Below are positions 43,578-64,000 of a stretch of 64,000 bases of DNA, in pieces. This DNA is from Sulfuritalea sp. (GTDB taxonomy: Bacteria > Pseudomonadota > Gammaproteobacteria > Burkholderiales > Rhodocyclaceae). Location of the stretch: the NCBI GenBank assembly GCA_023229685.1, contig JALNYT010000008.1:51817-115816 (forward strand). Reading direction: 5' to 3'. The notes under the pieces are model-generated. The model searched no databases. It saw only the letters and a program-made list of their open reading frames with translations, and was not told where the DNA came from. Numbering within the stretch: position 1 is the stretch's first letter; each line of letters begins with the position of its first letter. The translations under genes were made by a program, and so were the position numbers.

Positions 43578-43778
43578 CGTTTGCTTCCTTTGATTGCGCC
43601 CAGAGCAGCCTGCGAGAGTGCATGATGTTGCTGCGAAGCTTAGAGCGTAGCGCCTGCACATGGTTCCAGCTCAGCGAAGATAGTCTTTCATCCGCGTACT
43701 GTATATTATTCCAGTTACCCATGAAAGCCACTATTCAACTCCTCGGCAGGTGTGGCCTTTCCATGATTGGCGCAACCC

Positions 43779-44213: not shown

Positions 44214-44415
44214 TATCTCCAGAGCATGTTGATTTGAATAGCGGGGGGCAGACTATCTGTTGTGAGTCCTGTCAAAAACGATCTTGAAGAACCAAGGCAG
44301 TCCGCCGGCATGTATCTGCCAACAAGGGTATGTCAAGGATGTCGCGACGCACAATTATGCCCGGCATGCATAGAATGAATGGGTTCGGGATTCTCATTTG
44401 GTAAGCTCGTGCATC

Positions 44416-48937: not shown

Positions 48938-50221
48938 TTATACCAGCCCGCTCATCAACTGCACATTCACCGTATCGCCAGCGCCGACTTTCTCGCGCTC
49001 GTGTTCGAGCACGATGAAGCAGTCGGCCTCCGACATCGAGCGCAGCACGCCGGAACCTTGAGCGCCGGTGGGGCGCACGCACCACTCGCCGTCTTCCTGG
49101 AACAGGATGCCGCGCTGGAATTCGGTGCGGCCGCGGCCCTTCTTCATGGCTTCCACGCAGCGTGCGGGAAAGGCGGGGAAGGGTATTACCGGATCGACGC
49201 CGGCCAGCTTCAGAATGGCCGGCCGTACGAACTGGTAGAAGGTGACCATCACCGCCACCGGGTTGCCCGGCAGGCCGAACAGCCAGGCCCCGGGACTGTC
49301 TGCGCCGTCAGGCTGGATGCGGCCGAAGGCCATGGGGCGGCCGGGCTTCATGGCGATTTTCCAGAAGGCCACTTCGCCGAGTTGGGCCATCAGCTGCTTG
49401 ATGAAGTCGGCCTCGCCGACCGAGACGCCGCCGCTGGTGATGATCGCGTCGGCGCAGCCGGCGGCTTCGCGGAAGGCCGCTTCGAGCGCGGCCGGATCGT
49501 CCCTCACCACACCCATGTCGATCACGTCGCAGCCAAGCCGGGTGAGCATGCCCCACAGCGTGTAGCGGTTGCTGTCATACACCGCGCCGGGCGCCAGCGG
49601 CGTGCCGATCGAGCACAGCTCGTCGCCGGTGGAAAACAGCGCAACGCGCACGCGGCGGCGTACCGAGAGTTCGGCGACGCCGAGCGAGGCGATGATGCCG
49701 ATCTCGGCCGGGCGCAGCTTCTTGCCGGCGGCAATTGCCGGGCGCCCGGCCTGCAGGTCCTCGCCGGCGCGACGGGTGTTCTGGTCACGGCGCTGGCCGG
49801 GCGGGATGATCACCGCATCGCCTTCGACGCGCGCGACTTCCTGGATCACCACGCAGTCGACGTCCTGCGGGAGGATCGCGCCGGTCATGATTCGTACCGT
49901 CTCGCCAGCGTCGACTCTTCCTTCGAAGGCGCGGCCGGCGAGGGCGGTGCCGATATTCTTCAGGCGCGTCTCGCCGCTCGCCGCGAGATCGGAGTAGCGC
50001 ACGGCCCAGCCGTCCATGGCCGAATTGTCGTGGCTCGGCACGTCGATCGGCGAGATGACGTCCTCGGCCAGCACGCGATCCAGTGCCTGGCGCACGAAAA
50101 CCCGCTCATGGACGCCGACCGGGCTCAGCAGGTCGAGGATCAGCTCGCGGGCACGATCGACGTGCAGCGAATTCGGGTCGTAATTGTCGGCGCAGGACAG
50201 GGTCTGGAGGATGGAGGTCAT
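48938..50221 (-). CDS. moeA: Molybdopterin molybdenum/tungsten transferase MoeA
   Basis: SAMDGWAV...TGDEL...GGVSVGEADF...KPGRPMAFG. Confidence 0.85.
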   Translation of the reverse strand: MTSILQTLSCADNYDPNSLHVDRARELILDLLSPVGVHERVFVRQALDRVLAEDVISPIDVPSHDNSAMDGWAVRYSDLAASGETRLKNIGTALAGRAFEGRVDAGETVRIMTGAILPQDVDCVVIQEVARVEGDAVIIPPGQRRDQNTRRAGEDLQAGRPAIAAGKKLRPAEIGIIASLGVAELSVRRRVRVALFSTGDELCSIGTPLAPGAVYDSNRYTLWGMLTRLGCDVIDMGVVRDDPAALEAAFREAAGCADAIITSGGVSVGEADFIKQLMAQLGEVAFWKIAMKPGRPMAFGRIQPDGADSPGAWLFGLPGNPVAVMVTFYQFVRPAILKLAGVDPVIPFPAFPARCVEAMKKGRGRTEFQRGILFQEDGEWCVRPTGAQGSGVLRSMSEADCFIVLEHEREKVGAGDTVNVQLMSGLV

Positions 50222-50264
50222 GGCGTGAAGCGATTTGGCGGACGGCGCTGATTCTGCGTTGAGT

Positions 50265-51347
50265 CTAGCCGCCAATGTAAGACATTTCAATTTTTCCGGG
50301 CAGGGCGGTGGCGGCGGTGCGGATTTCCGAATAACGGTCATCGCGTCCGCGCCAGACGGCCGCGATCACGCGCTGCAGTTGGTCGTCGTCCGCACCCTGG
50401 CGCAGCAGCGCGCGCAGGTCGTGGCCGCTGCGGGCGAACAGGCAGGTGTAGAGCTGGCCTTCGGTGGATAGCCGGATGCGGGTGCAGGTGGCGCAGAAGG
50501 CCTGCGTGACCGAGGAGATGACGCCGATCTCGCCGGCGCCGTCGCGGTAACGCCAGCGCTCGGCGACTTCGCCGTGGTAGTTGGCATCGATCGCCTGCAG
50601 CGGAAATTCGGCGTTGATGCGGGCGATCACGTCGGCGGAGGGCAGCACCTCGTCCATGCGCCAGCCGTTGGAGCTGCCGACATCCATGAACTCGATGAAG
50701 CGCAGGATGTGGCCGCTGTTGCGGAAGTGGCGCGCCAGCGGCAGGATCTGGTCGTCGTTGGTGCCGCGCTTGACCACGCAATTCACCTTGATCGGCGCGA
50801 GGCCCGCGGCTGCGGCGGCGGCGATGCCGTCGAGCACGTCGCTGACCGGATAATCGACATCGTTCATGCGCTTGAATACGGCGTCGTCGAGGCCGTCGAG
50901 ACTGACCGTGACGCGCGTCAGACCGGCGTCCCTCAGCGCCCGCGCCTTCTTCGTCAGCAGCGAGCCATTGGTGGTCAGCGTCAGTTCCACCGGCAGCTTC
51001 GCCAGTTGCTCGATCAGGTTTTCGATATGCCGGCGCAACAGCGGCTCGCCGCCGGTGATGCGGATTTTCTCGACGCCCTGATCGACGAAGATGCGCGCGA
51101 TGCGGACGATCTCCTCGAAAGACAGTAGCTCGGCGCGCGGCAGAAATGCGTGGTCGTGGTCGAACACGGCTTTCGGCATGCAATACACGCAGCGGAAATT
51201 GCAGCGGTCGGTGACCGAGATGCGCAAGTCGCGCACTCGCCGGTTGCGCCGGTCGACCAGGCTGCCGTCAAGCGGCGCGGCAAGCGCGTCGCTGCCTGCT
51301 GGCAGGGGCTTGGGCGCACTGGCGATAGGGATAATGCGGGCTTTCAT
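50265..51347 (-). CDS. moaA: GTP 3',8-cyclase MoaA (radical SAM)
   Basis: [18 protein letters not shown] radical-SAM motif and the C-terminal [20 protein letters not shown] cluster motif. Confidence 0.9.
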
Positions 51348-51435
51348 CTCGTTGCGGACTATAAGCCGGCCGGGCCGTCGAGACAACACCCGCCACCGGC
51401 CGGGGTCCCTATCTACGAAGTGCGTCCTGCCGTCA

Positions 51436-52011
51436 TCAGGGCTTTGCTGCAGGGCGCCTGAGCAGCAGGGAAGGGTTCTCCGTGACCTTGTCCGTCAAGC
51501 CGCCGACGCTGGTAACGACTTTCTTGACCTGGTCCTCGATGGCCGAGAATTTCTTGACCAGCTTCGGCAGATCGTCGAGCATCGCATTGAGTCCGGTTTT
51601 TTCCGAAGGAATCTCGGGGATCTGATTTTCGGGCGTGACCGCAAGCAGGGTTTGTGCTGCCGGGTCTCCGCCGTTCAGTTCGATAAAGACGACGCCGGTG
51701 ATGCCCTTCAACGTCAGGCTGGCCTTGGTGTCGGTCTTGACCGGCGTTTCCTTGCGCAACCTGATATCCACACGCACCAGGCGCGAATTGTCCGGATCGA
51801 TGCGCATCGACTTGACCGTGCCGACATCGACGCCACGGAATTTCACCGTATCGCCTGCCGTGAGCCCGCTCACCGAGTCCGGAAAATGGATGCGGTAGAT
51901 TACATCGTCATGGCGCCCGGCACTTCCCAGCCACACGGCGAAAATCGCTGCGGCAACCGAGAACACGATGATGAACAGCCCCTCGAAGAAGTAGTGCTTG
52001 TCAGTTTCCAT
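51436..52011 (-). CDS. MlaD/MCE-domain substrate-binding protein
   Basis: N-terminal TM helix and an MCE domain ([21 protein letters not shown]). Confidence 0.8.
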
Positions 52012-52792
52012 GGCTTGTTTTCCTTGCTTTCATTGCGCCTTCCGCGCGCGGTCCGTGGAAGAATTCGTGAATCCACGGATGGGTGGACTTCAGCAGCTTG
52101 TCGGCCGTGTCGACCGTAATCGTCTTGTCGACCAGCACGGCAATGCGGCCGCAGACGGTGAACAGCGTGGTGAGATCGTGGGTGACGATGACGACGGTAA
52201 TGCCGAGGATCTGGTTGAGCTGCAGGATCAGAGCATCGATGCCGCTCGCGGCGATCGGGTCGAGATCCGAGGTGGGTTCGTCGAGAAACAGAATCCTCGG
52301 GTCGAGCGCGAGCGCCCGCGCCAAGGCGGCGCGTTTCACCATGCCGCCGGACAGCGCGGAGGGAAACTTGATGCCGCTGTCCGCCGGCAATCCGGAGAGC
52401 GCCAGCTTCATCGCTGCGATGTGTTCCTGCTCTTTGGCCGGCAGTGTCGTATGTTCGCGCATCGGCAGCATGATGTTCTGTGCCACCGAAAGCGAAGAAA
52501 ACAATGCACCTTGCTGAAACAGCACGCCGATGAGAGAGGCTCTTTCCGCCGCACCGATGGATTGAACCGGCTTGCCATTGAGCAGCACTTCGCCGGCATC
52601 CGGCTGGTGCAGACCGGTGAGGGTCTTGAGCAGCACCGACTTGCCCGAGCCCGATCCGCCTGCGATGCCGATTATTTCGCCGGGCACGATGTCGAGGCTG
52701 AGCTTGTCGTGTACCACCTGTTTGCCAAATCGATTGACGATACCGCGCGCCGACAGGATCGGTTCGGCATGGGCCCTGGTCCGGGTATTCAT
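52001..52792 (-). CDS. ABC transporter ATP-binding protein (MlaF-like)
   Basis: GGSGSGKS, LSGGMVKR and LFLDEPTSDLD. Confidence 0.85.
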   Translation of the reverse strand: MNTRTRAHAEPILSARGIVNRFGKQVVHDKLSLDIVPGEIIGIAGGSGSGKSVLLKTLTGLHQPDAGEVLLNGKPVQSIGAAERASLIGVLFQQGALFSSLSVAQNIMLPMREHTTLPAKEQEHIAAMKLALSGLPADSGIKFPSALSGGMVKRAALARALALDPRILFLDEPTSDLDPIAASGIDALILQLNQILGITVVIVTHDLTTLFTVCGRIAVLVDKTITVDTADKLLKSTHPWIHEFFHGPRAEGAMKARKTSHGN

Positions 52793-53931
52793 AGGCCGAG
52801 CCTTTCGAACAGGATGGAGAAAAATGCGTCGAGCACGATCACCAGAAAGATCGATTTCACTACGGCGCGGGTGGTCTCCCGGCCGACACTTGCCGCCGAG
52901 CCCGTCACCCGGAGCCCGTGCATGCAGCCGATGACGGCAATGAAGAAGGCAAACACCGGCGCCTTGAACAGGCCGACGAAGAGATCGTGGCCGTCGACCA
53001 CCTGCGGCAGGCGTGTCAGGTATTGGGTCGGCGATACATCAAGCAGAAACTGTGCGATCGCGGCGCCGCCGATCAGGCCCATGATGTCGGCAAAGAACGT
53101 CAGCAGCGGCAGGGTGATGACCAGGGCGATCACGCGCGGCACCACCAGTACCTGCATGGGTTTGATCCCCATCACCTTGAGCGCGTCGACTTCCTCCCGT
53201 GTCTCCATGACGCCGATTTCGGCGGTGAAGGCGGAGCCCGAGCGGCCGGCCACCATGATGGCCGTGATCAGCACGGCCATTTCGCGCAATACCGACACCG
53301 CTACCAGGTTGATGGTGTAGTCCTCGCCGCCAAAGGGGCGCAACTGGGCCACGCCCTGATAGCCGATGACGATCGCGATCATGATGGCCATCAGGCCAAT
53401 GATGGGCAGCGCCTGAATGCCGGTTTCCGTTATATGCCGGGAGATCGAAGCCGGACGCAGGCAATGCGGATGAAGCAGGGCGTTGGCGGTCCAACTCGCG
53501 GCGCGACCGACAAAGGTGATCAGGTCGAGTGCTTCGTGCCGGGCATCGTGCGCGCCTTTGCCGAGCTGGATGATGAGCTGGCGCCAGCGGGAAACGGTTT
53601 TGACTTTCGGTATCGGCTTGAGATCGAGCCCGTAGATGAGATCGAGCAGCGCCCGTTGTTCGGCGCGGACCCCGGTAAGTTCCACGCCCTTGTCGCGCAG
53701 GCCGCAGAGGAACAACGCGCCCGGCGTGTCGAGGCTGTCGAGCATGGCAACGTCGAGGTGGCGCGATGCCCCCTGCTTCGACCATCTTGCCAGGGACTTT
53801 CCTGCTTCGACCAGCGTCGATATTTCAAGAACACCCGCCAGTGCGAGGCGATCACCATCGCCGCTGACGACCAGCGTCGGCTGGGGCGGGTTGGCGGAAG
53901 CTTGCTGCGCGTTTGCAGGCACACGGATCAC
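52789..53931 (-). CDS. MlaE-family ABC permease with an N-terminal STAS-like domain
   Basis: The C-terminal 260 aa are MlaE-like (GEDYTINLVAVSVLREM...). The N-terminal ~110 aa are soluble and anti-sigma-antagonist-like. Confidence 0.8.
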   Translation of the reverse strand: MIRVPANAQQASANPPQPTLVVSGDGDRLALAGVLEISTLVEAGKSLARWSKQGASRHLDVAMLDSLDTPGALFLCGLRDKGVELTGVRAEQRALLDLIYGLDLKPIPKVKTVSRWRQLIIQLGKGAHDARHEALDLITFVGRAASWTANALLHPHCLRPASISRHITETGIQALPIIGLMAIMIAIVIGYQGVAQLRPFGGEDYTINLVAVSVLREMAVLITAIMVAGRSGSAFTAEIGVMETREEVDALKVMGIKPMQVLVVPRVIALVITLPLLTFFADIMGLIGGAAIAQFLLDVSPTQYLTRLPQVVDGHDLFVGLFKAPVFAFFIAVIGCMHGLRVTGSAASVGRETTRAVVKSIFLVIVLDAFFSILFERLGL

Positions 53932-54154
53932 GGTTTGTACGAGGCTCCACGAACTGAGAATTGGCCGAATGATTCAGACTTGATATTTCTTCGCGCCGGC
54001 ACGGACGCGTCGTAAGCGTATGCAGGCTATTCGAGGCGCCGGGCAAACTCGGTGCGCTAGCGAACATGCCGTTTCGCAACCCGCTCGAACACGACTACCC
54101 CCTGACTGCAACTGCAAGAGACAGGAACCAGTCACCCTGGTGGTGCCGCCAGGG

Positions 54155-54544
54155 TCACGCCTTGAGGCTTGCGCAGACCCGTTGCAGAAGCATCCGTACT
54201 TCCTTGCCGAGGGCATGTACTTCCGGTTTGTCGACCAACTGCAACACGACCTCGGGATCCATGAATGCGACCGTTATGGTGCCATCGGCTTCTTCGCGCA
54301 CGACCACGTTGCACGGCAGTAGCAAGCCGATGTCGGGATCAGCCTCGATGGCGCGGTGTGCGAGCGGGGGGTTGCATGCGCCGAGTATGCGATATGGCCG
54401 GTGTTCGATATTGAGCTTGGCCTTCAGCGTCGCCTTGACATCGATATCGGTGAGGACACCGAATCCTTCCTTTTTCAGGGCTTCGGTGACCATTGCGACG
54501 GCGGTATCGAACGGTACTTTCAGCTGGGTGTTGAATCCGTACAT
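54155..54544 (-). CDS. DUF302-domain protein
   Basis: [23 protein letters not shown]...YRILGACNP pattern. Confidence 0.75.
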
Positions 54545-54602
54545 GAGTTGTTTCCTTTCAAGTGGCTATGCTGCTTGGTCAAATGCGGGATCAATGTTGG
54601 TA

Positions 54603-55025
54603 CTACCTGGCTAGCATCGACTCCATGGCCTGCTGGTGCTGCATCAGCTGCTCCATCATCGTCTGCATCATGTCTAGGCGCTTTTCCGTCATGGCGTGGT
54701 GCTGCATCATCGCGCTGCCGGCCATTCCGTGCTTCTTGTCACCCTTCATCATGGCGCCGTCCATGCCATGCATCGTTTGCATGTTTTCCTGCATGGTCTG
54801 CATGTGTGCCTGCATCAGCTTTTGGCGTTCCGCAGGGTCGGTTGTCGCCCGGAATTGTTCCATCTGCTGCTGCATTTTCTTCATGTTCTCCTGCATCTGC
54901 AGCGTCTGCTTATCCGTGGCCATGCTCATCGCCGGCTTGCCGGGTGCGACTTTTTCCTGCGCCGACAGGGCCGGCACCGACAGGGCGCAGCCAACGACTG
55001 CGGCGAGGAGTATTGGAGTTTTCAT
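54603..55025 (-). CDS. Exported Met/Gln/His-rich protein (candidate periplasmic Cu(I)/metal-binding protein)
   Basis: Signal peptide MKTPILLAAVVGCALSVPALSA. Roughly one mature residue in five is Met, in repeated MQxxMQ / HxxM patterns. Confidence 0.6.
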   Translation of the reverse strand: MKTPILLAAVVGCALSVPALSAQEKVAPGKPAMSMATDKQTLQMQENMKKMQQQMEQFRATTDPAERQKLMQAHMQTMQENMQTMHGMDGAMMKGDKKHGMAGSAMMQHHAMTEKRLDMMQTMMEQLMQHQQAMESMLAR

Positions 55026-55359
55026 TGGGGTTGCACCTTTTGGGGTTGAGTTGCCTGAGTTGTTCACTGCGTCCGCTGGCGGAATCCGCATGAGCAAGTG
55101 CCGGAACGTTCTTTATAGCTGCAGGCGCCGGCACCGTCCGTACGTTGCCGCACAAATTGCCTTTGGTGACTGATACGGGCAGGCACTGGATGCCTTTGGT
55201 TCCAGAAGGAAAAGCGCTGTCAGGCCACGCCCGGGGGGCGCGCGAAGGTCAAGAAGAAGATCGACGATCGCGGCGAGCGGCGGCAGGAAAAGTGCCTGGC
55301 GCTGAAGGAACAGCGCCAGAAGGTTCAGGAACGGACGCGGAATGCAGCGCGCTTACCTG

Positions 55360-56574
55360 TCAAGCAAGCAGCGAACCCAGATCGAAGGCCGTGTCGGCCG
55401 CTTGCGCGGGCGTGGGCGAGATGCCCTTCTCGAACAGCTTGCGGCCGTTCATGTGCTCGGGCGGCTGGTTCAGCGAGTCGATCGCAATCAGTTTGCCGGC
55501 CTGGTAGTAGTAGGCGGAGAACTTCTGCGTTGTTGGGTCGCCGCGCGTGACCACCTGGTCGAAGCCGGCGGTCAGCCCGAGCATCTGCAGTTTGACGTCG
55601 TATTGATCGGACCAGAACCACGGTGCCGCATGGAAGGGCCGGTCGCGGCCGAGCAGCGCAGCGGCGGCCGACCGGCCCTGCTCGAGCGCGTTCTGCACGG
55701 ATTCGAGGCGGCGCAGGCTGCCGTCGTCCAGGCGCCGCGCGGTACAGTCGCCGGCGGCGACGATGGTCGGGTCGGAGCAGCGGCCGCAGGCATCGACTAC
55801 AATGCCGCCATTGACTTCGAGGCCCGCCGCCTGGGCCAGTTCAACATTGGGGATGATGCCGATGCCGACCAGCACCAGGTCGGCGGGAAACTCGCGACCG
55901 TCCCTGGTTCTTACCGCTGTGATTCGGCCGCCACTGCCGACCAGTTCCGAGACCATGGCGCCGAGCACCACTTCGGCGCCATGGCGGGTGTGCAGGTCGA
56001 GGTAGAACTGCGAAATCAGCGGCGCGACGACGCGCGCCATGAGGCGGTCGGCGGCTTCCAGCACGGTGACGCGCTTCTCCTTCCTGCGCGCGACGGAGGC
56101 GACTTCGAGGCCGATGAAACCGCCGCCGATGATCACTACGTTATGTGCGGCCTCCAGCGCCGCCGCAATCGCCTTCGCCTCGTCCAGCGTACGCAGGCCG
56201 TAGACGCCGTGCCAGTCAGCCCCGGCCAGCGGCAGCGGGCGCAGGCGCGAGCCGGGGCACAGTGCCAGACCGTCGTAGCCCAGCGTCGAGCCGTCGCCGA
56301 GTGCGACCCGCTTTGTGCTGCGATCGATCGCCGTGGCGCCGGCGCCGACTCTCAGGTCGATGTCTTTCTTCACCAGCAGTTCCGGGGGACGCATCATCAG
56401 CTGTGCTTCAGCGGTCTGACCCAGCAGAAAGCCCTTGGACAGCGGCGGACGCTGGTAGGGGGCGTGCGCTTCGTCGCCGATCAGCGTGATGGGTCCCGCA
56501 TAGCCTTCGCTGCGCAGCGTCTCGGCGACAGTGAGTCCGGCCAGGCCGGCCCCGATGATCAGCATCCCGCTCAT
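55360..56574 (-). CDS. FAD/NAD(P)-dependent ferredoxin/rubredoxin reductase-like oxidoreductase
   Basis: Two Rossmann motifs (LIIGAGLAG, VIIGGGFIGLE), APYQRPPLSK, and a C-terminal reductase dimerisation domain. Confidence 0.8.
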   Translation of the reverse strand: MSGMLIIGAGLAGLTVAETLRSEGYAGPITLIGDEAHAPYQRPPLSKGFLLGQTAEAQLMMRPPELLVKKDIDLRVGAGATAIDRSTKRVALGDGSTLGYDGLALCPGSRLRPLPLAGADWHGVYGLRTLDEAKAIAAALEAAHNVVIIGGGFIGLEVASVARRKEKRVTVLEAADRLMARVVAPLISQFYLDLHTRHGAEVVLGAMVSELVGSGGRITAVRTRDGREFPADLVLVGIGIIPNVELAQAAGLEVNGGIVVDACGRCSDPTIVAAGDCTARRLDDGSLRRLESVQNALEQGRSAAAALLGRDRPFHAAPWFWSDQYDVKLQMLGLTAGFDQVVTRGDPTTQKFSAYYYQAGKLIAIDSLNQPPEHMNGRKLFEKGISPTPAQAADTAFDLGSLLA

Positions 56575-56915
56575 GTGTGTGTCTCCAGAAAATGGTTATT
56601 CGCTTTGCGGATGATATTGCATCAGCGTTGCCGAACCACGCTCAGTTGGCAGACGCATAACTTTGCGTTGTCACGACCGTTCCGCGAAAGGACGCCGTCG
56701 ATATCACCGCACGCTGGCAGAAACGCAACGGGACCACGGCTTGCGGCCAAGGCGCCATGAGCGGGGATCATCTGGCCACCCTCGATGCGCTGCCGCCGCC
56801 CGAGGAGGGCTGCCGGCATGCCTCGGCACCGGTCAGGCTGCTCGAGCGGGTGCCTCGGCCCGACTTGGCGTAAGCGCTGTCCGGCAACTTCCGAGGTTGA
56901 CCTACATCAAATCAG

Positions 56916-56929
56916 CGAACGCTCGTTCG
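56916..56929. promoter_or_regulatory. Perfect 6-2-6 palindrome CGAACG-CT-CGTTCG (candidate operator)
   Basis: Located in the 574-bp intergenic region upstream of the TetR-bam genes. Pattern only. Confidence 0.2.
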
Positions 56930-57148
56930 GGTAGCATCACCGTCAGTAGGGTAATAGGAAAAACGTTGCATAGGTTGCAGACTGTTAACCGGAACAGCCC
57001 GTGAGAAGCGGGCTGGAGGTCAAATGGCTTACGCGTTGCGCTCGACTTCACCGCACGTCAACATCGCCTGGCGCCAGGGCGACTCACTGCTTGCCGGGCA
57101 GGGCCTGCGGCCGGTCCATGAGCGGCACCGGCCGATCCGGGAGCCGCA

Positions 57149-57973
57149 ATGGTGAGCCACGTCTCCGCCGAGTCCTCCACCAGGCTGCTCCGGCATGAGG
57201 CACAACGCCTCGAGATTCTCAAGGCGGCGGCTGCGGCCATTGCCGAACACGGCTTCCACGGCATGACCATGCGGGGTCTTGCCCGGGCGACGGGACGCGG
57301 CCTGGCCACCTTCTACGACTACTTTTCCTCCAAGGAAGACCTGCTCTTCTCGCTGCAGACCGACGCCTTCGGCACCATGGCCAGTTCGGCGAACGCGGCG
57401 CTCGAGGGGGTCGATGACCACGTCGATCGGCTGTATGTCTTCATCTTGAATCACCTCCGCTATGCAGCCGAGAATCGGTCGGTGATGCGGGTGTTGGTTC
57501 ATGAAGCCTCTGCCCTGCCTGCGGGCAGACGCAAGACGGTGCGCCTGCTCAAGGAAGCCTATTTCAATATCTGCCGGGATATCGTGGCATCGATTCTTGC
57601 CGCGGGTTGCAGCTCAGCCGGTGCCGGCGGCGTCGACAGGTTGGACTCCGCCGAGGTCGAGCGGGTGACTTACAGCGTCTTCGGCATGCTCAACTGGAGT
57701 TACGGTTGGTACGACCCCCGCCTTCATGGGACGCCTCAGGATGTCGCCAGGACCATCCATACCCTGGCCGTCTGCGGCCTGGTGGCCCGCGGTCCCGAGC
57801 GCTTCGCCCCGTCCAGCCTGGAGCACCACCTTGACGCAATGGCCCTGCTGCCGCTTATCGGCAGTTCCGGTCGAAAAGTGGCAACTGTCGGCTCCCGGCT
57901 GTCGCCAGCGGCAAAGAAAACAACGAGCGGCGCGGAAATGCGCGCAAGGCTCATGGATAGAAACTCAGTCTGA
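57149..57973 (+). CDS. TetR/AcrR-family transcriptional regulator
   Basis: N-terminal HTH ILKAAAAAIAEHGFHGMTMRGLARATGRGLATFYDYFSSKEDLL. Confidence 0.85.
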   Translation: MVSHVSAESSTRLLRHEAQRLEILKAAAAAIAEHGFHGMTMRGLARATGRGLATFYDYFSSKEDLLFSLQTDAFGTMASSANAALEGVDDHVDRLYVFILNHLRYAAENRSVMRVLVHEASALPAGRRKTVRLLKEAYFNICRDIVASILAAGCSSAGAGGVDRLDSAEVERVTYSVFGMLNWSYGWYDPRLHGTPQDVARTIHTLAVCGLVARGPERFAPSSLEHHLDAMALLPLIGSSGRKVATVGSRLSPAAKKTTSGAEMRARLMDRNSV

Positions 57974-57988
57974 GAGGGGACCAGAGAA

Positions 57989-59950
57989 ATGCGTTATGGA
58001 GAAATAGGTTTCGATTTGGAAGTGAACCTCTCGCGAGGCAGCATCGACCGGGTGGAGACCGACCCGAACGACACCAAGCTGTACCTTGGGGGCCTCGGCA
58101 CCAATGCCAAGATCATGTGGGACCGGGTGCCGGCCGAGACCGATGCCTTTTCCGAGGACAACCTGCTGATCTTCAGCAGCGGCCTGCTTTGCGGCACCGC
58201 GGCGCCGGGCAGCAATCGCACCATCGTGTCGACCATATCGCCGCAGACGAAGCTGATGGCCTATTCGATGATGGGCGGCTTCTTTGCGCCCGAGCTCAAG
58301 TATGCCGGTTACGACAAGGTCATCATCAGCGGCAAGTCGGAAGAACTGGTCTATCTGTGGATCCACAATGACAAGGTCGAGATTCGGGACGCCTCGCATC
58401 TGAAGGGCATGGGCGCCACCGCGACCTCGGAGGCGATCCGCACGGAATTGAAGGATCCGGACATCCAGGTGGCGGCTATCGGCCTGGCCGGAGAGAACCG
58501 GGTCTTTTACGCCTCGATCGAGCAGGGCCGCTCTTCGGCGTCGCGCGGCGGCATCGGCGCCGTGATGGGCGACAAGGGCCTCAAGGCGATCGCCGTGCGC
58601 GGCACCAAGGACATCAACGTTGCCGACCCGGCCAAGTACATGGAACTGTGCGACGACGTGCTGAAGTACATCAAGTTCCGCGGCGAGAATCCGATCAAGG
58701 GTGTGCCGCCGATTCTGCAGGGTCTCGGCTCGCCGCAGGAAATGGCCATCGTCGATGAGGAGTGGCACACCACCAACTTCACCTGGGGCAACTCGCGCAC
58801 CCGGCGCAAGGACTTCTGGACTCATGAGATCGAACAGAAGTGGAAGCAAACCCAGGAAAACGTACGCACGCGGCTGATCAGTTGCCACAACTGCCCGATG
58901 AAGTGCGGCGCCACCATCTCCGTGCCGGGTCTGCCCACCTACATGATGAAGTGCTACTCGAAGCTGACTTACACCATGGCGGCTTTTTCGGACCTGGACT
59001 TCGGCTTCAGGATCGCGCAGAAGGCTACCGAGTACGGCGTCGACGGCTTTTCCGCACCGCAGGCGATGGCTTTCGGCCTCGAACTGCTGGAAGCCGGCAT
59101 CCTTACCCTGGAAGACTTTCCCGGCATGCCGGAAGACACCGAGGGCCGCTTCTTCTACCTGCTGGACAAGATCGTTCGCCGCGAAGGCATCGGCGACTAT
59201 CTGGCCGACGGCACCTACTGGGCAGCGCGGCGCATCGGCAAGGGCGCGGAGAAGTTCGACCACAATACCATCAAGAAGCACGAGCAGCTGCCGCTCAAGC
59301 TGGGCATGCTGAATCCGGTGTATTACCTGATGTACTCGACCGGCGAGAAGATCAACATCACCCAGATCGAAGGCCAGTTCCCGCAGGAGCCCTTCGCCAC
59401 CCGCGAGTTGCGCGAGGAGTTCGTCAAGGACTGGTTCCAGGTGCCCGACGAGAAGTTCAAGAAGTACTACGCCGACTGGGAGCCGCGCGGCGAGATGTCG
59501 AACCCCTACTACCCCACGCCGCAGATGGCCAGCGAGATCGTCGACTGGATGGAGAAGATGCACTACATCGACGATGCCCTCGGCATGTGCGCCGGCCTGT
59601 CGTCCTTCCCGCTCAAGCCGCCGTATCACATCCACAACTATCCCGAGTTCGTCACCGCCGCGACCGGCATCAAGATGACCAAGGACGATGTCTGGAAGTC
59701 GGCGACCCGCACCCGCACCCTGATGCGCGCCCTCAACGTGCGCCGCGGCATGCGCCGCACCGACGACAAGCCGCCGGAGGACCACTGGAGGAAGCGCTTC
59801 CCCGATCTGGAAAAGGAACTGCTGGACAACTACTACAAGCTGAAGGGTTTCAACGATCAGGGCATACCCACCAAGGAATCCCTGGAGGATCTGGAAATGG
59901 GTTTCGTGGCCGAGGAATTCGAGCAGAAAGGAATCTACAGCAATGGCTAA
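57989..59950 (+). CDS. bamB: Aldehyde:ferredoxin-oxidoreductase-family tungsten enzyme, BamB-like (class II benzoyl-CoA reductase active-site subunit)
   Basis: 653 aa. LYLGGLGTNAKIMWDRVP, ISCHNCPMKCGATIS, MMKCYSKLTYTMAAFSDLDFG, INITQIEGQFPQ and GLSSFPLKPPYHIHNYPEF closely match my recollection of Geobacter BamB. Confidence 0.8.
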   Translation: MRYGEIGFDLEVNLSRGSIDRVETDPNDTKLYLGGLGTNAKIMWDRVPAETDAFSEDNLLIFSSGLLCGTAAPGSNRTIVSTISPQTKLMAYSMMGGFFAPELKYAGYDKVIISGKSEELVYLWIHNDKVEIRDASHLKGMGATATSEAIRTELKDPDIQVAAIGLAGENRVFYASIEQGRSSASRGGIGAVMGDKGLKAIAVRGTKDINVADPAKYMELCDDVLKYIKFRGENPIKGVPPILQGLGSPQEMAIVDEEWHTTNFTWGNSRTRRKDFWTHEIEQKWKQTQENVRTRLISCHNCPMKCGATISVPGLPTYMMKCYSKLTYTMAAFSDLDFGFRIAQKATEYGVDGFSAPQAMAFGLELLEAGILTLEDFPGMPEDTEGRFFYLLDKIVRREGIGDYLADGTYWAARRIGKGAEKFDHNTIKKHEQLPLKLGMLNPVYYLMYSTGEKINITQIEGQFPQEPFATRELREEFVKDWFQVPDEKFKKYYADWEPRGEMSNPYYPTPQMASEIVDWMEKMHYIDDALGMCAGLSSFPLKPPYHIHNYPEFVTAATGIKMTKDDVWKSATRTRTLMRALNVRRGMRRTDDKPPEDHWRKRFPDLEKELLDNYYKLKGFNDQGIPTKESLEDLEMGFVAEEFEQKGIYSNG

Positions 59951-60485
59951 GGTCAAGAAAATCGTCAAGTCCATCACCATTGACGCCGACAAGTGCAACG
60001 GCTGCAAGGCCTGCGAGGTGATCTGCTCTTCCTGGCACGCGACCCCGCGCTACAGCAGCAACAATCCGGCGCGCTCGCGCATCCGCATAGTGCGCCTGCC
60101 GCTGCGGGACATCTACCTGCCGGTCTACGCCGGCGAGTACACCGAGTCGGAGTGCACCGGCCGCGACAAGTACATCATCGACGGCAAGGAATACAACGAG
60201 TGCGACTTCTGCCGCGCTTCCTGCCCCTCGCGCGACCTGTTCAAGGAGCCCGACTCCGGGCTGCCGCTGAAGTGCGACATGTGCGAGGAAACACCGGCGC
60301 TGGCGCAGCCCAAGTGCGTCGAGTGGTGCCACGCCGAGGCGCTGATCTACGTCGAGCGCGAAGAGGAAGTCGAGGAAGACGAGCAGCCCAAGCTGGGTGA
60401 CATCGAGATCGGCCTGGGATCGATGATCGACAAGTACGGCCTGCAGCAGGTGCTGGATACGGTCGCCAGAATGGCGAAGCCGTAA
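59943..60485 (+). CDS. bamC: Fe-S cluster subunit, BamC-like
   Basis: CNGCKACEVIC, CDFCRASCP and CDMCEE...CVEWC motifs. 8-nt overlap with bamB. Confidence 0.75.
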   Translation: MAKVKKIVKSITIDADKCNGCKACEVICSSWHATPRYSSNNPARSRIRIVRLPLRDIYLPVYAGEYTESECTGRDKYIIDGKEYNECDFCRASCPSRDLFKEPDSGLPLKCDMCEETPALAQPKCVEWCHAEALIYVEREEEVEEDEQPKLGDIEIGLGSMIDKYGLQQVLDTVARMAKP

Positions 60486-60517
60486 TGCGTCCGACCAACC
60501 AACAGGGTCAGTAAAGC

Positions 60518-61672
60518 ATGGAAACCGTAGCCCCCCAAAAAGAGATCATCGACGCGATCAAGGCAAGCGGCGGCGATGCTTTCAAATCCTGTTACCAGTG
60601 CGGCATGTGCGACACCGTCTGCCCGTGGAACCGGGTCAGCAAGTTCAGCATGCGCAAGATCGTGCGCGAGGCCACTTTCGGCCTGACCGAGATCGACAGC
60701 GAGGAAATCTGGCGCTGCACGACCTGCGGCAAATGCCCGCAGGTCTGTCCGCGGGACGTCAAGCAGATCGAGTCGGGCATCGCACTGCGCCGCATCGCCA
60801 CCGAATACGACGTCTTTCCCGGCGGCGCGGCGCCGATTCCGGGCGTCTCCGCCGGACTCCGGGCGGAGGGCAATCCCTTCGGCGAGCAGCGTTCGAAGCG
60901 TGCCGACTGGGCCAAGGACCTGGGCGTCAAGCGTTTCGAGGAGGGCATGGAGATCCTGTATTCCCCTGGTTGCTACCTGTCCTATGACCCGCGCGGCAAG
61001 AAGATCGCCAAGGCCACGGTGGAAATTTTGCAGAAGGCCGGTGTCGACTTCGGCATTCTCGGCACCGACGAGAGCTGTTGCGGCGAGAGCATCCGCAAGA
61101 CCGGCGACGAGAAGCTGTTCAAGACCCTGGCACGGCAGAACATCCGCAACTTCGTCGACAACGGCGTCACCAAGATCCTCGTGTCGTCACCGCACTGCTA
61201 TCACAGCTTCAAGAACGAATACCGCGAGTTCAAGGTGAATTTCGAGGTGATCCATATCACCGAATTCCTGCACCAGCTGATCAGTGAAGGCCGGCTGAAG
61301 CTGACCAAGGAAGTTGCCAAGAACGTCACCTACCACGATCCCTGCTATCTCGGACGCCACAACGGCGTCTACGACGAGCCGCGCGAAGCGTTGAAGAGCG
61401 TGCCCGGCCTGCAGTTGACCGAGATGGCCGAGTCGCGCAAGAACAGCTTCTGCTGCGGCGGCGGCGGCGGTCGCATCTGGATGGAAACGCCCAAGGGCGA
61501 ACGCTTCTCCGACCTGCGCCTGGAGCAGGCCGTGGGCACAGGGGCGCAGATCATGGTGACGGCCTGCCCGTATTGCACCACCAATTTCGAGGACAGCCGC
61601 CTGAGCCGGCCCGACGGGGGTGCCTCGATCGAGATCAAGGACATCACCGAAATCATTCGCGAAGCGATCTAG
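60518..61672 (+). CDS. bamD: HdrD-like heterodisulfide-reductase-type subunit, BamD-like
   Basis: Two ferredoxin motifs (CYQCGMCDTVCP, CTTCGKCPQVCP) and two CCG domains (ESCCGES, FCCGGGGG...CPYC). Confidence 0.75.
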   Translation: METVAPQKEIIDAIKASGGDAFKSCYQCGMCDTVCPWNRVSKFSMRKIVREATFGLTEIDSEEIWRCTTCGKCPQVCPRDVKQIESGIALRRIATEYDVFPGGAAPIPGVSAGLRAEGNPFGEQRSKRADWAKDLGVKRFEEGMEILYSPGCYLSYDPRGKKIAKATVEILQKAGVDFGILGTDESCCGESIRKTGDEKLFKTLARQNIRNFVDNGVTKILVSSPHCYHSFKNEYREFKVNFEVIHITEFLHQLISEGRLKLTKEVAKNVTYHDPCYLGRHNGVYDEPREALKSVPGLQLTEMAESRKNSFCCGGGGGRIWMETPKGERFSDLRLEQAVGTGAQIMVTACPYCTTNFEDSRLSRPDGGASIEIKDITEIIREAI

Positions 61673-61686
61673 GCGAGGACATCAAA

Positions 61687-64000
61687 GTGGAATTCGGACT
61701 CTTACAGCAGCAATGGAACACGCAGAATGTCCTGCGTCCGGCCGACGACAACATGGGCGACGTGATGGTCGTCGGCGGCGGCATCAGCGGCATCCAGGCA
61801 GCGCTCGACCTGTCGGCAGAGGGTTACAAGGTCTACCTGGTGGAGAAGTCGCCGACCGTTGGCGGCAAGATGTCGCAACTGGACAAGACCTTCCCCACCA
61901 ATGACTGCTCGATGTGCATCGAGTCGCCGAAGTTCATCGAAACCGACCGGCAGCCGAACATCCAGCTGATGACCTACACCGACGTCGACAGCGTCGAGGG
62001 CGAGCCCGGAGACTTCACCGTCACCCTGCTGAAGAAGCCGCGCTACGTCATCGAGGACAAGTGCACCGGGTGCACGGTTTGCGTCGAGTACTGCCCGGTC
62101 AAGATCCCTGATCCGTTCAACCAGGACCTGTCGCTGAACAAGGCGGTGCACATCTACTTTTCGCAGGCCGTGCCGCTGGTCACCTACATCGACGAAAGCT
62201 GCCTGTTCCTCAAGGACAAGACCTGCTCGATCTGCCAGACCGTCTGCGAGAACGATGCCATCGACTTTGGCCAGAAGGCAGAGAAGGTCAAGATCAAGGT
62301 CGGCGCCATCATCCTGTCGCCCGGCTACGAAACCTTCGACCCCTTGCCGCGCAACGATTACGGCTACGGCCAGTTCGCCAACGTGGTCACCAGCATGGAC
62401 TTCGAGCGCCTGCTGTGCTCTACCGGTCCGCACGAGGGCCAGATCCTGCGTCCCTCGGACAAGAAGCATCCGAAAAAGATCGCCTGGATCCACTGCGTCG
62501 GTTCGCGCCAGGTGAATCCGACCGGCGCCAACAGCTATTGCTCGGCGGTGTGCTGCTCCTACACGCAGAAGCAGGTGATCCTGGCCAAGGACCACCTGCC
62601 CGATCTCCATGCCAAGATTTTCCACAATGACATCCGCTCCTACGGCAAGGACTTCGAGCGTTTCTACCAGCGTGCGCAGAAACTGCCCGACGTGCATTTC
62701 ATCCGCAGCTACGTGTCGGTCGGCAGCGAAGACCCCGTCACCGGAGACGTGTCCATTCGCTACACGACACCGGACGGAGTGGTCGAGGAGTTCTTCGAAC
62801 TGGTGGTGCTCTCGGTGGGCCTGGCCCCGCCCAAGGATGCCCAGCGCTTCTCCAAGGTTTTCGACATCGAGCTCAACCGCCACGGCTTCTGCAAGGTCGA
62901 TCCCTTCAATCCGCTGCAGACCAGCCGTCCCGGCATATTCACCAGCGGCGCCTTCCAGGGCCCGATGGACATTCCCGAAGCGGTGATGGGCGCCAGCGGC
63001 GCCAGTGCCCTGGCCTCCAACCTCCTCATGTCGCGGCGCGGACAGTTGAACGAGGAGCGGGTGTATCCGGAAGAGAAGGACGTCTCCGAAGAGGAAGCCA
63101 GGGTCGGCGTCTTCGTCTGTCGCTGCGGCGCCAACATCGGCCGCGTGGTGGACGTGCCGGGCATCGCCGAGTACGCCAAGGGACTGCCCAACGTGGTGCA
63201 CGTCGAGGAAAGCCTGTTCGCCTGCGCTACCAATACCGCCAAGGCGATCTCGGACACCATCCGCGACAAGGGACTGAACCGGGTGGTGGTGGCCGCCTGC
63301 ACGCCGCGCACGCACGAGCCGCTGTTCCGCGACACCCTGCGCGAGGCCGGCGTCAACCAGTATTTCTTCGACATGGCCAACATCCGCGAGCACTGCACCT
63401 GGGTGCACTCCAAGGAGCAGGAAGCCGCGACGGAGAAGGCCAAGGACATCGTGCGCATGTCGGTGGCGCGGGCCGGCAAGCTGGAGCCGCTGGACGAGTT
63501 CTCGCTGCCGGTGGACAAGACCGCGCTGGTGGTCGGCGGCGGCGTCGCCGGCATGACCAGCGCCCATACCCTGGCTGAGCAGGGCTACGAGACCTACCTG
63601 ATCGAGAAGGCCTCTGATCTGGGCGGTGTCGCCAACCGCATGCACTACACGCTCGAGGGCATGGACGTGCAGGCCTTCGTCAAGGACCTCAAGAAGAAGG
63701 TCTACCGGCACCCGCGGATTCACGCCATTACCGATGCCGCCGTCGTGCATGTCGACGGCTACGTCGGCAATTTCAGCACCACGGTCAAATCCAAGGGCCG
63801 GGTGCGGACCATCAAGCACGGCGCGGCCATCATCGCCACCGGCGCCGCCGAGTACAAGCCGACCGAGTATTTGTACGGCGAGAACGACAAGGTGATGACC
63901 CTGCTGGAGATGGAAGGCAAGCTCGCCAAGCAGGACGAAAAGCTGATGGCGGCGGACAGCATGGTGATGATCCAGTGCGTCGGCTGCCGCAACGAGGATC
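61687..64000 (+). CDS. bamE: HdrA-like FAD/Fe-S flavoprotein, BamE-like (3' end outside window)
   Basis: Not in the track because no stop occurs before the window edge. My hand translation of frame 1 from GTG 61687 is open throughout. Motifs: VVGGGISGIQAALDL, CTGCTVCVEYCP, CSICQTVCEN, and a second Rossmann LVVGGGVAGMTSAH. Confidence 0.8.
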   Translation, partial: MEFGLLQQQWNTQNVLRPADDNMGDVMVVGGGISGIQAALDLSAEGYKVYLVEKSPTVGGKMSQLDKTFPTNDCSMCIESPKFIETDRQPNIQLMTYTDVDSVEGEPGDFTVTLLKKPRYVIEDKCTGCTVCVEYCPVKIPDPFNQDLSLNKAVHIYFSQAVPLVTYIDESCLFLKDKTCSICQTVCENDAIDFGQKAEKVKIKVGAIILSPGYETFDPLPRNDYGYGQFANVVTSMDFERLLCSTGPHEGQILRPSDKKHPKKIAWIHCVGSRQVNPTGANSYCSAVCCSYTQKQVILAKDHLPDLHAKIFHNDIRSYGKDFERFYQRAQKLPDVHFIRSYVSVGSEDPVTGDVSIRYTTPDGVVEEFFELVVLSVGLAPPKDAQRFSKVFDIELNRHGFCKVDPFNPLQTSRPGIFTSGAFQGPMDIPEAVMGASGASALASNLLMSRRGQLNEERVYPEEKDVSEEEARVGVFVCRCGANIGRVVDVPGIAEYAKGLPNVVHVEESLFACATNTAKAISDTIRDKGLNRVVVAACTPRTHEPLFRDTLREAGVNQYFFDMANIREHCTWVHSKEQEAATEKAKDIVRMSVARAGKLEPLDEFSLPVDKTALVVGGGVAGMTSAHTLAEQGYETYLIEKASDLGGVANRMHYTLEGMDVQAFVKDLKKKVYRHPRIHAITDAAVVHVDGYVGNFSTTVKSKGRVRTIKHGAAIIATGAAEYKPTEYLYGENDKVMTLLEMEGKLAKQDEKLMAADSMVMIQCVGCRNED

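What the first reader, a model, noticed from the sequence alone, without database searches (positions are those of the whole stretch)
55360..64000. Class II (tungsten, ATP-independent) benzoyl-CoA reductase-type module with TetR and a divergent FAD reductase in a betaproteobacterial-looking chromosome
The module contains a 653-aa AOR-family protein with many strings I recall from Geobacter BamB, a small 3-cluster Fe-S protein overlapping it by 8 nt, an HdrD-like protein with two CCG domains, and a large HdrA-like flavoprotein. This reproduces the bamBCDE order. Such dearomatising systems are classically assigned to obligate anaerobes (Geobacter, Syntrophus, sulfate reducers). Facultative betaproteobacteria (Thauera, Azoarcus/Aromatoleum) use the ATP-dependent class I enzyme. 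The housekeeping synteny in this window looks betaproteobacterial. Either the host is an unusual strict anaerobe of that class, or the module was acquired or serves another aromatic or enoyl substrate. The expected bamFGHI-like electron-input genes would lie beyond the window edge.
Basis: partly seen in the sequence, partly recalled or inferred. Interest (0 to 1): 0.65.

Follow-up and report, generated by a model that had tools for sequence, protein, structure and literature searches.

The report
Tungsten benzoyl-CoA reductase operon in a betaproteobacterium
The end of this window carries a genuine ATP-independent (class II, tungsten) benzoyl-CoA reductase operon, the enzyme that breaks aromatic rings without oxygen, in a groundwater betaproteobacterium, a group that textbooks say uses only the ATP-dependent enzyme.

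Summary
Window 57149-64000 encodes, on one strand, tetR-bamB-bamC-bamD-bamE; bamE is cut by the window end. BamB aligns end to end, without gaps, with crystallised G. metallireducens BamB (72.6% identity) and keeps the tungsten ligand Cys322, His260, Glu251 and the cluster cysteines.

The host is betaproteobacterial (Rhodocyclaceae-like LepA, 91%). About 40 betaproteobacterial genomes carry a related cluster. Among them is the isolate Ramlibacter lithotrophicus, which came from a Mn(II)-oxidising co-culture. Every locus long enough holds bamBCDEFGHI in the same order, so bamFGHI almost certainly lie just beyond the edge. In Comamonadaceae-type relatives, had-oah-dch directly precede bamB, which argues for benzoyl-CoA as substrate.

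- The TetR gene belongs to the operon. A palindrome (56916-56929) co-occurs strictly with it.
- The FAD reductase is present but is not beside bam in any of 80 related loci.
- The betaproteobacterial form has Cys where most deltaproteobacterial-type loci have selenocysteine codons, in BamE and BamF.

Verdict: an ordinary enzyme in an unexpected host group. It is a new member of a known kind, of moderate interest because it contradicts the "class II = strict anaerobes" rule.

The parts
56916..56929 (.). Palindrome CGAACGCTCGTTCG, the candidate TetR operator. It lies about 220 nt upstream of tetR, next to a conserved TTGACC (56897-56902).
   Evidence: Invariant block in the alignment of window, L001, L002 and L004. 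The pattern CGAACGNNCGTTCG occurs once in the window. Among 160 fetched loci it occurs only in the 9 that have the tetR gene upstream of bamB, always upstream of tetR.
57024..57155 (+). Possible 43-codon leader ORF. GGAGG lies 7 nt upstream, and its TGA overlaps the tetR ATG (ATGGTGA). Whether it is real is uncertain.
   Evidence: The start region (GGAGGTCAAATGGCTTACGC) is conserved in L001, L002 and L004; the rest is only loosely conserved.
57149..57973 (+). TetR-family regulator, first gene of the operon. Its stop is 15 nt before the bamB start.
   Evidence: TetR_N 3.5e-13 and TetR_C_24 5.1e-16. It has weak likeness to acyl-CoA-responsive FadR-type TetRs. It is conserved directly upstream of bamB in 9 Rhodocyclales-type loci at 68-93% identity.
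57989..59950 (+). bamB: catalytic tungsten-bis-metallopterin / [4Fe-4S] subunit of class II benzoyl-CoA reductase.
   Evidence: 1125 bits, residues 1-653 against 1-653 of 4z3w_A. 474/653 residues identical. Cys322, Glu251, Glu257, His260 and Cys299/302/306 are kept; His255 is replaced by Val. It lies inside the BamB clade in the NJ tree.
59943..60485 (+). bamC: electron-transfer subunit with three [4Fe-4S] clusters.
   Evidence: 263.6 bits to BamC 4z3w_E. It has 12 Cys. The overlap with bamB is 8 nt.
60518..61672 (+). bamD: HdrBC/HdrD-like subunit, the high-potential output branch.
   Evidence: Two CCG domains (3.4e-38) plus Fer4_8. HdrC and HdrB chains are matched in the PDB. It is 76-96% identical in all betaproteobacterial bam loci.
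61687..64000 (+). bamE, the first 771 of about 1032 codons: a fused double HdrA-like flavoprotein (the bifurcating module). It is cut by the window end. Cys77 (61915-61917) stands where 25 other loci have an in-frame TGA.
   Evidence: (HdrA2, 727 bits, 2 stretches).
48938..51389 (-). moeA (48938-50341) and moaA (50265-51389): pterin-cofactor synthesis and metal-insertion genes. They may be associated with the tungsten enzyme.
   Evidence: MoeA 562.8 bits. MoaA has Radical_SAM + Mob_synth_C. Homologues at 65-71% identity lie immediately upstream of tetR-bam in L016, L017 and L018.

Best explanation
Window 57149-64000 is the 5' three-quarters of a tetR-bamBCDEFGHI operon. It encodes an ATP-independent, tungsten-dependent class II benzoyl-CoA reductase in a groundwater betaproteobacterium of the Rhodocyclaceae/Sterolibacteriaceae group.

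How it works, by homology with the G. metallireducens complex (inferred):
- BamGH takes electrons from NADH and reduced ferredoxin.
- BamI and BamF pass them to the HdrA-like flavin of BamE, which bifurcates them.
- The low-potential electron goes through the three clusters of BamC to the W-pterin of BamB. There benzoyl-CoA is reduced to cyclohexa-1,5-diene-1-carbonyl-CoA, with His260 and Glu251 as the proton route.
- The high-potential electron leaves through BamD to an electron-transferring flavoprotein and then the quinone pool.

The TetR protein probably represses the operon at the palindrome 56916-56929 and is released by an acyl-CoA, most likely benzoyl-CoA (inferred).

The cluster belongs to a betaproteobacterial lineage of bam operons that uses Cys instead of selenocysteine in BamE and BamF. 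This lineage has spread laterally among Rhodocyclales-like and Comamonadaceae genomes. The FAD reductase at 55360-56574 is an unrelated neighbour.
For: Shown:
- Identity and diagnostic residues of BamB.
- BamC against the solved structure.
- Domain make-up of BamD and BamE.
- The same gene order bamBCDEFGHI in every betaproteobacterial locus that is long enough, including L001 (92.7% nt identity, same tetR).
- BamF, G, H and I identified as FlpD/MvhD-like, NuoE-like, NuoF-like and 2Fe-2S + 4Fe-4S proteins.
- had, oah and dch score above NCBIfam equivalog cut-offs directly upstream of bamB, and a 2-oxoacid:acceptor oxidoreductase alpha subunit scores above its subfamily cut-off (beta barely above its own) divergently, in relatives whose BamB is 92-93% identical.
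- Differences from relatives are concentrated at third codon positions (123 of 154 for bamB against L001), which indicates purifying selection.
- Metatranscriptome contigs 88-99% identical cover bamB-bamE.
- Even read depth in two groundwater metagenomes.
- The palindrome and tetR co-occur in 9 of 9 loci and in 0 of the other 151.
- The Cys for Sec replacement.

The mechanism is taken from PMC12096430 and preprint 10.64898/2026.04.10.717634.
Against: - bamFGHI are not in the window; they are inferred from synteny only.
- No dch, had, oah or benzoate-CoA ligase gene lies in the 64 kb, so the pathway context is borrowed from relatives.
- His255, called invariant in the Zn site of resting BamB, is Val here.
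- No activity, metal content or expression data exist for this organism itself.
- The RNA evidence comes from contigs of relatives and could contain DNA carry-over.
- The TetR effector and operator are inferred.
- The tree is a neighbour-joining tree of only the 80 closest of 502 relatives.
Confidence: 0.85

Rival explanations
1. The complex is a BamB-type reductase for a different aromatic or enoyl thioester, for example a hydroxy-, methyl- or halo-benzoyl-CoA, rather than benzoyl-CoA itself.
For: - No benzoyl-CoA lower-pathway genes lie in the window.
- His255 is Val.
- Many organisms hold several BamB paralogues, and Ramlibacter-type loci have a second, 55% identical BamB/C pair next to the main one, so the family does diversify.
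Against: - Identity to the characterised enzyme is 72.6%, without a single gap, and the catalytic residues are kept.
- The 92-93% identical BamBs sit directly behind had-oah-dch equivalogs, which process the product of benzoyl-CoA reduction.
- Val, Ile, Phe or Ala at position 255 also occurs in deltaproteobacterial-type BamBs.
Confidence: 0.08
2. The cluster is a silent or decaying acquisition that the host, an oxygen-exposed betaproteobacterium, does not use.
For: - Class II BCR is reported as extremely oxygen-sensitive and absent from aerobes (PMC12521323).
- The window carries a selenoneine synthase SenA, which by my own knowledge needs O2.
- One carrier, R. lithotrophicus, was isolated from a Mn(II)-oxidising co-culture, which is aerobic by my own knowledge.
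Against: - All reading frames are intact, with GC3 of 0.85-0.91, similar to or slightly above the rest of the window (about 0.73-0.91).
- Substitutions relative to relatives are mainly synonymous-site.
- The cluster is kept complete in dozens of genomes.
- Near-identical transcripts appear in metatranscriptomes.
Confidence: 0.05
3. Assembly or binning artefact: a bam cluster from an anaerobe wrongly joined to betaproteobacterial DNA.
For: Most related records are metagenome-assembled genomes.
Against: - The window is one contiguous sequence with lepA, fab genes, era and others that are betaproteobacterial.
- Composition is uniform across the junction.
- Contigs of two independent metagenomes tile 54000-64000 at even depth with no differences.
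- A related cluster sits in an isolate genome (L038) and in contigs of 0.7-2.9 Mb (L003, L022).
Confidence: 0.02

Closest known systems
Class II benzoyl-CoA reductase Bam[(BC)2DEFGHI]2 of Geobacter metallireducens (PDB 4Z3W-4Z40 for BamBC; cryo-EM preprint 10.64898/2026.04.10.717634)
   Same: - Same gene order and subunit set.
- BamB has the same length, no gaps and 72.6% identity.
- The W ligand Cys322, His260/Glu251 and the [4Fe-4S] cysteines are kept.
- BamC has 12 Cys.
- BamD has two CCG domains.
- BamE is a fused double HdrA.
   Different: - The host is a betaproteobacterium from groundwater, not a strict anaerobe of the Desulfuromonadia.
- BamF of the relatives has Cys19 where G. metallireducens has Sec19.
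- His255 of the resting-state Zn site is Val.
- A TetR gene heads the operon.
- No bamA or other pathway genes are nearby in this genome.
- The quinone behind the high-potential branch is presumably ubiquinone rather than menaquinone (inference from host taxonomy, not tested).
Deltaproteobacterial / Chloroflexi / Acidobacteria-type bam clusters (loci L043-L080)
   Same: Same bamBCDEF(GHI) order; BamB is 73-77% identical.
   Different: About 25 of these loci have in-frame TGA (selenocysteine) codons in BamE, at the position of window Cys77, and about 24 have one in BamF at position 19. All betaproteobacterial loci have Cys at these positions.
Class I (ATP-dependent) benzoyl-CoA reductase BcrABCD/BzdNOPQ of Thauera, Aromatoleum and Georgfuchsia
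   Same: Same reaction and the same host class. Georgfuchsia, a relative within Rhodocyclales, uses class I (PMC9290046).
   Different: It is an unrelated protein family (Fe-S/ATPase). Nothing of that kind lies in the finding's region. Whether this genome also has a class I enzyme could not be tested.
Tungsten aldehyde:ferredoxin oxidoreductases (AOR, FOR, WOR5; AOR of Aromatoleum)
   Same: Same superfamily fold and pterin/[4Fe-4S] binding.
   Different: Scores are only 125-217 bits against 1125 for BamB. AORs lack the Cys322 metal ligand, which is present here.

Membership tests
Class II benzoyl-CoA reductase (Bam complex) | BamB: an AOR-superfamily subunit closest to characterised BamB rather than to aldehyde oxidoreductases. 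| tested here: met
   1125 bits full length to 4z3w_A against 217 bits to 1aor. 72.6% identity. Inside the BamB clade in the NJ tree.
Class II benzoyl-CoA reductase (Bam complex) | Cys322 as protein ligand of tungsten. It is conserved in BamB (and YdhV) and absent from other AOR/WOR members (PMC12096430). | tested here: met
   Cys at position 322 (MMKC).
Class II benzoyl-CoA reductase (Bam complex) | Proton-donating His260 and Glu251 above the W cofactor; [4Fe-4S] cysteines. | tested here: met
   E251, E257, H260 and C299/C302/C306 are present. H255, a resting-state Zn ligand that is not catalytic, is Val.
Class II benzoyl-CoA reductase (Bam complex) | BamC polyferredoxin with three [4Fe-4S] clusters, encoded next to bamB. 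| tested here: met
   263.6 bits to 4z3w_E, 12 Cys, 8-nt overlap with bamB.
Class II benzoyl-CoA reductase (Bam complex) | HdrBC/HdrD-like BamD and a fused double-HdrA BamE. | tested here: met
   BamD has two CCG domains plus a ferredoxin domain. BamE has two HdrA-like stretches, but only 771 of about 1032 residues lie in the window.
Class II benzoyl-CoA reductase (Bam complex) | BamFGHI electron-input module (MvhD-like, NuoE-, NuoF- and NuoG-like proteins) in the same operon. | tested here: inconclusive
   These genes lie beyond the window end. They are present in the same order in every related betaproteobacterial locus that is long enough, including the nearest, L001.
Class II benzoyl-CoA reductase (Bam complex) | Tungsten-dependent, ATP-independent reduction of benzoyl-CoA to 1,5-dienoyl-CoA. 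| not testable with these tools
   This needs enzyme assays. The indirect support is had-oah-dch adjacent to bamB in relatives.
W/Se subtype of class II BCR (G. metallireducens / deltaproteobacterial type) | Selenocysteine in BamF (Sec19) and, in many lineages, in BamE. | tested here: not met
   Window BamE has Cys77 where 25 loci have TGA. All betaproteobacterial BamF have Cys19. This places the operon in a Cys-type (selenium-free) subtype. It does not exclude it from class II BCR.

The most novel reading that the evidence does not exclude
Class II, electron-bifurcating benzoyl-CoA reductase is not confined to strict anaerobes. A selenium-free lineage of the enzyme is common and transcribed in facultatively aerobic or denitrifying Betaproteobacteria of groundwater, lakes and wetlands: Sulfuritalea/Sterolibacterium-like organisms, Rhodoferax, other Comamonadaceae, and Ramlibacter, including a cultured strain from an aerobic co-culture. 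There it would dearomatise benzoyl-CoA without ATP, passing its high-potential electrons to a ubiquinone-based respiratory chain. If so, bamB is not a valid marker for obligate anaerobes, and the energetic argument for the class I / class II split needs revision.
Probability: 0.45. Interest if true: 0.7.

Novelty: new member of a known kind. Interest (0 to 1): 0.5.

Why it matters
Reviews and primary papers up to 2025-2026 still state that class II BCR belongs to strict anaerobes and class I to facultative ones. bamB is also used in the field as a marker gene in surveys of anaerobic aromatic degraders.

Here a canonical bam operon sits in a betaproteobacterial chromosome. The same lineage occurs in about 40 betaproteobacterial genomes, including a cultured Ramlibacter. 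That opens three things:
- It makes the rule directly testable in a culturable organism.
- It suggests that freshwater and groundwater Betaproteobacteria contribute to ATP-cheap anaerobic aromatic degradation.
- It offers a selenium-free version of the 1-MDa complex for biochemistry.

The enzyme chemistry itself is not new.

Tried and rejected
- Exact-protein look-up of BamD to extend the contig found nothing on record. The missing bamFGHI therefore had to be inferred from related loci.
- The FAD reductase as a module component was rejected: tblastn found no copy in any of the 80 bam loci. It scores below the equivalog cut-offs for HcaD/AndAa-type ferredoxin reductases.
- The σ70 promoter and terminator scan around tetR found nothing. 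The generic inverted-repeat search did not report the operator. It emerged only from the alignment of upstream regions.
- Georgfuchsia toluolica as a known betaproteobacterial carrier (my recollection) was wrong: it uses class I BCR.
- Nine full-text literature searches found no paper describing bam clusters in Betaproteobacteria. The R. ferrireducens paper found only scattered, moderately similar genes. Subscription-only papers (Löffler 2011, Anselmann 2019) could not be read, so prior mention cannot be excluded.
- The rest of the window was searched for oxygen-respiration markers, without a decisive result.
- I did not run structure prediction or the large protein-database searches. A 72.6%-identical crystal structure made them unnecessary.
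Full report
**1. What is in the sequence**

- On the minus strand, 55360-56574 encodes a 404-aa flavoprotein with Pyr_redox_2 and Reductase_C domains.
- On the plus strand, five genes follow each other closely:
  - a 274-aa TetR-family protein (57149-57973);
  - a 653-aa AFOR_N/AFOR_C protein (57989-59950);
  - a 180-aa protein with 12 cysteines (59943-60485), which overlaps the previous gene by 8 nt;
  - a 384-aa protein with a ferredoxin domain and two CCG domains (60518-61672);
  - a reading frame open from 61687 to the last base of the window, 771 codons, with two HdrA-like stretches.
- The tetR stop is 15 nt before the next start, so the five genes look like one transcription unit.
- GC and GC3 do not set the region apart from the rest of the window.
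- Contigs of two independent groundwater metagenomes tile 54000-64000 without differences and at even depth. The junction between housekeeping DNA and the module is therefore real.

**2. Is the AOR-family protein a BamB?**

- Against all PDB chains, the 653-aa protein matches BamB of Geobacter metallireducens (4z3w_A) over 1-653 of both proteins, without a gap, at 1125 bits. The best aldehyde oxidoreductase reaches 217 bits.
- Identity is 474/653, or 72.6%.
- A 2025 review names Cys322 as the protein ligand of tungsten that separates BamB (and YdhV) from all other AOR/WOR members. It names His260 and Glu251 as the only polar, proton-donating residues above the cofactor (PMC12096430). All three are present, as are Cys299, Cys302 and Cys306.
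- One of the four residues of the resting-state Zn site, His255, is Val. The same holds for most betaproteobacterial sequences, and Val, Ile, Phe or Ala also occur in several deltaproteobacterial-type sequences. I treat this as a minor variation.
- In a neighbour-joining tree of the window protein, the crystallised BamB and 92 sequences from related loci, the window groups with Rhodocyclaceae and Sulfuritalea MAGs. These sit inside a single betaproteobacterial clade, which lies within the canonical BamB clade. The divergent paralogues fall outside.
- The small Fe-S protein is BamC (263.6 bits to 4z3w_E).

**3. What lies beyond the window edge**

- A scan of one genome per species found 502 relatives of BamB. 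The best 42 are nearly all labelled Betaproteobacteria, at 78-96% identity.
- I mapped all Bam subunits onto the 80 fetched loci. Every betaproteobacterial locus with enough sequence has bamBCDEFGHI in the same order.
- In L003 the downstream genes are:
  - a FlpD/MvhD-like protein with a C-terminal winged helix (BamF);
  - a NuoE-like 2Fe-2S protein (BamG);
  - a NuoF-like flavoprotein (BamH);
  - a 2Fe-2S plus 4Fe-4S protein like the N-terminus of NuoG/HoxU (BamI).
- The nearest locus, L001, is 92.7% identical in DNA over 7.1 kb and shares the same tetR. It continues with bamFGHI directly after bamE.

I therefore infer, but have not seen, that bamFGHI follow in this genome.

**4. Substrate**

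- The window has no dienoyl-CoA hydratase, hydroxyacyl-CoA dehydrogenase or ring hydrolase gene.
- In the Comamonadaceae/Rhodoferax-type loci, BamB is 92-93% identical to the window's. There, bamB is directly preceded, on the same strand, by genes that pass the NCBIfam equivalog cut-offs:
  - 6-hydroxycyclohex-1-ene-1-carbonyl-CoA dehydrogenase (574.6 bits, cut-off 338.65);
  - cyclohexa-1,5-dienecarbonyl-CoA hydratase (386.3, cut-off 292.5).
- A 2-oxoacid:acceptor oxidoreductase pair is encoded divergently.

These enzymes consume the product of benzoyl-CoA reduction and can supply reduced ferredoxin. This is the strongest available argument that the betaproteobacterial complex acts on benzoyl-CoA.

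**5. Regulation and neighbours**

- The tetR gene is conserved directly upstream of bamB in nine Rhodocyclales-type loci.
- Aligning the upstream regions exposed an invariant block with the palindrome CGAACG-NN-CGTTCG (window 56916-56929).
- The pattern occurs once in the window. Among 160 loci, it occurs only in those nine, each time upstream of tetR. I take it as the operator.
- The C-terminal domain type and weak likeness to FadR-type TetR proteins suggest an acyl-CoA effector. This is inference.
- A 43-codon ORF with a good ribosome-binding site ends on the tetR start codon. Whether it is real is open.
- The FAD reductase has no counterpart next to bam in any of the 80 loci. I do not count it as part of the module.
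- moeA and moaA lie 6.6 kb upstream. Homologues lie immediately upstream of tetR-bam in L016-L018. A link to tungsten-cofactor supply is plausible but not shown.

**6. How it most likely works**

The cryo-EM preprint on the G. metallireducens complex (10.64898/2026.04.10.717634) describes the following route.
- BamGH is a confurcating input for NADH and reduced ferredoxin.
- BamI and BamF act as a relay.
- BamE is an HdrA-type bifurcating flavoprotein.
- The low-potential branch runs through BamC to the W cofactor of BamB.
- The high-potential branch runs through BamD to an electron-transferring flavoprotein and on to menaquinone.

All subunits are conserved here, so I adopt this mechanism by homology. 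In a betaproteobacterium the final acceptor would presumably be ubiquinone. That is inference.

**7. In what it differs**

- G. metallireducens BamF has Sec19.
- In about 24 deltaproteobacterial, Chloroflexi and Acidobacteria-type loci, BamF has an in-frame TGA at that position. In 25 of these loci, BamE has one at the position of the window's Cys77.
- All betaproteobacterial loci, and the window's BamE, have Cys at these positions.
- The betaproteobacterial enzyme is thus a selenium-free subtype. This holds even though the window encodes SelD within a selenoneine gene cluster.

**8. Host and history**

- LepA of the window is 91% identical to a Rhodocyclaceae MAG, 85-86% to Sterolibacteriaceae and Azonexus, and 74-75% to Comamonadaceae.
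- BamB, in contrast, is 92-93% identical to that of Comamonadaceae and Rhodoferax MAGs.
- At third codon positions, bamB differs from the Rhodoferax-type loci at 24-26% of codons. lepA differs from Rhodoferax genomes at 50-54%.
- The caveat is that different Rhodoferax genomes were compared, and that bamB has slightly stronger codon bias. Even so, this points to lateral spread of the cluster among Betaproteobacteria.
- Substitutions are mostly at third positions, so the genes are under purifying selection.
- The window sequence occurs in groundwater metagenomes.
- Metatranscriptome contigs from sediment, groundwater and wetland are 88-99% identical to bamB-bamE. One example is a 1059-nt contig over 57978-59029 with 95 differences. 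This identity is too high for deltaproteobacterial genes, so the betaproteobacterial lineage appears to be transcribed in nature. Contigs are weak expression evidence.

**9. Strict anaerobe or not?**

I could not read the whole genome. The indications of contact with oxygen are these.
- The window has a selenoneine synthase SenA (522 bits, cut-off 420). By my own knowledge this enzyme type needs O2.
- The labelled carriers belong to genera known as facultative: Sulfuritalea, Sterolibacterium, Rhodoferax and Ramlibacter.
- Ramlibacter lithotrophicus RBP-1 was isolated on succinate or hydrogen from a Mn(II)-oxidising co-culture, which is aerobic by my own knowledge. It has a complete cluster with 63-79% identical subunits.

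None of this proves that the enzyme works in such hosts.

**10. Comparison with the literature**

- Papers from 2016 to 2026 repeat that class II BCR is the enzyme of strict anaerobes. One 2025 review says both classes are absent from aerobic organisms.
- Georgfuchsia toluolica, the strictly anaerobic betaproteobacterium I first thought of, uses class I.
- The Rhodoferax ferrireducens study found only scattered, moderately similar genes.
- Nine full-text searches found no description of bam operons in Betaproteobacteria. Subscription-only papers were out of reach.

**11. Verdict**

- The enzyme is an orthologue of a well-understood complex, so it is a new member of a known kind.
- The interest lies in its host range, its selenium-free make-up and its TetR control.
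- I set interest at 0.5. The most novel reading, a working class II BCR in facultatively aerobic Betaproteobacteria, gets a probability of 0.45.

Noticed in passing
window 1300-5536: Complete selenoneine gene set: senA (1300-2619, -), senB (2471-3457, +), selD/senC (3466-4530, +) and an EgtD-type histidine methyltransferase (4535-5536, -). All except the SelD/SenC role pass NCBIfam cut-offs as named. The host activates selenium, yet its Bam subunits use Cys instead of Sec.
   Followed up: partly
window about 39000-44400: A stretch of lower G+C (0.53-0.56 against 0.60-0.68 elsewhere). Its ORFs have no Pfam match, apart from one multi-haem c-type cytochrome (41178-42359). It may be foreign DNA.
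   Followed up: partly
L029-L039 (e.g. L038 6908-9340, minus strand): Ramlibacter/Burkholderiales-type loci carry a second BamB/BamC-like pair, about 55% identical, transcribed divergently from the main bam operon. It keeps Cys322 and His260 but has Trp in place of Glu251. It may be a reductase for another substrate.
   Followed up: partly
L001 11723-12622 (minus strand) and 13 other betaproteobacterial loci: An HD-domain protein of about 299 aa is conserved just downstream of bamI on the opposite strand. A double-GNAT protein takes that place in 7 other loci (e.g. L003 20635-21597). Their functions are unknown.
   Followed up: no
window 57024-57155: A 43-codon ORF with a GGAGG ribosome-binding site. 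Its stop codon overlaps the tetR start (ATGGTGA). The start region is conserved in L001, L002 and L004.
   Followed up: partly
window 54155-55097: A DUF302 protein (54155-54544, -) and a 164-aa Met/His/Gln-rich, probably exported protein without any Pfam match (54603-55097, -). They lie between a Mla-like ABC transporter (51436-53931) and the FAD reductase.
   Followed up: no
window 58751-58753 (BamB residue 255): His255, described as an invariant Zn ligand of resting BamB, is Val here and in 39 of 95 BamB-like sequences compared. Ile, Phe and Ala also occur at this position.
   Followed up: yes
L043-L080: In-frame TGA codons at one fixed position of BamE (25 loci) and one of BamF (about 24 loci) in deltaproteobacterial, Chloroflexi and Acidobacteria-type clusters. 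Clostridia and Bacteroidota-type loci (L062, L066, L071, L075) and L065 have Cys, like the Betaproteobacteria.
   Followed up: yes
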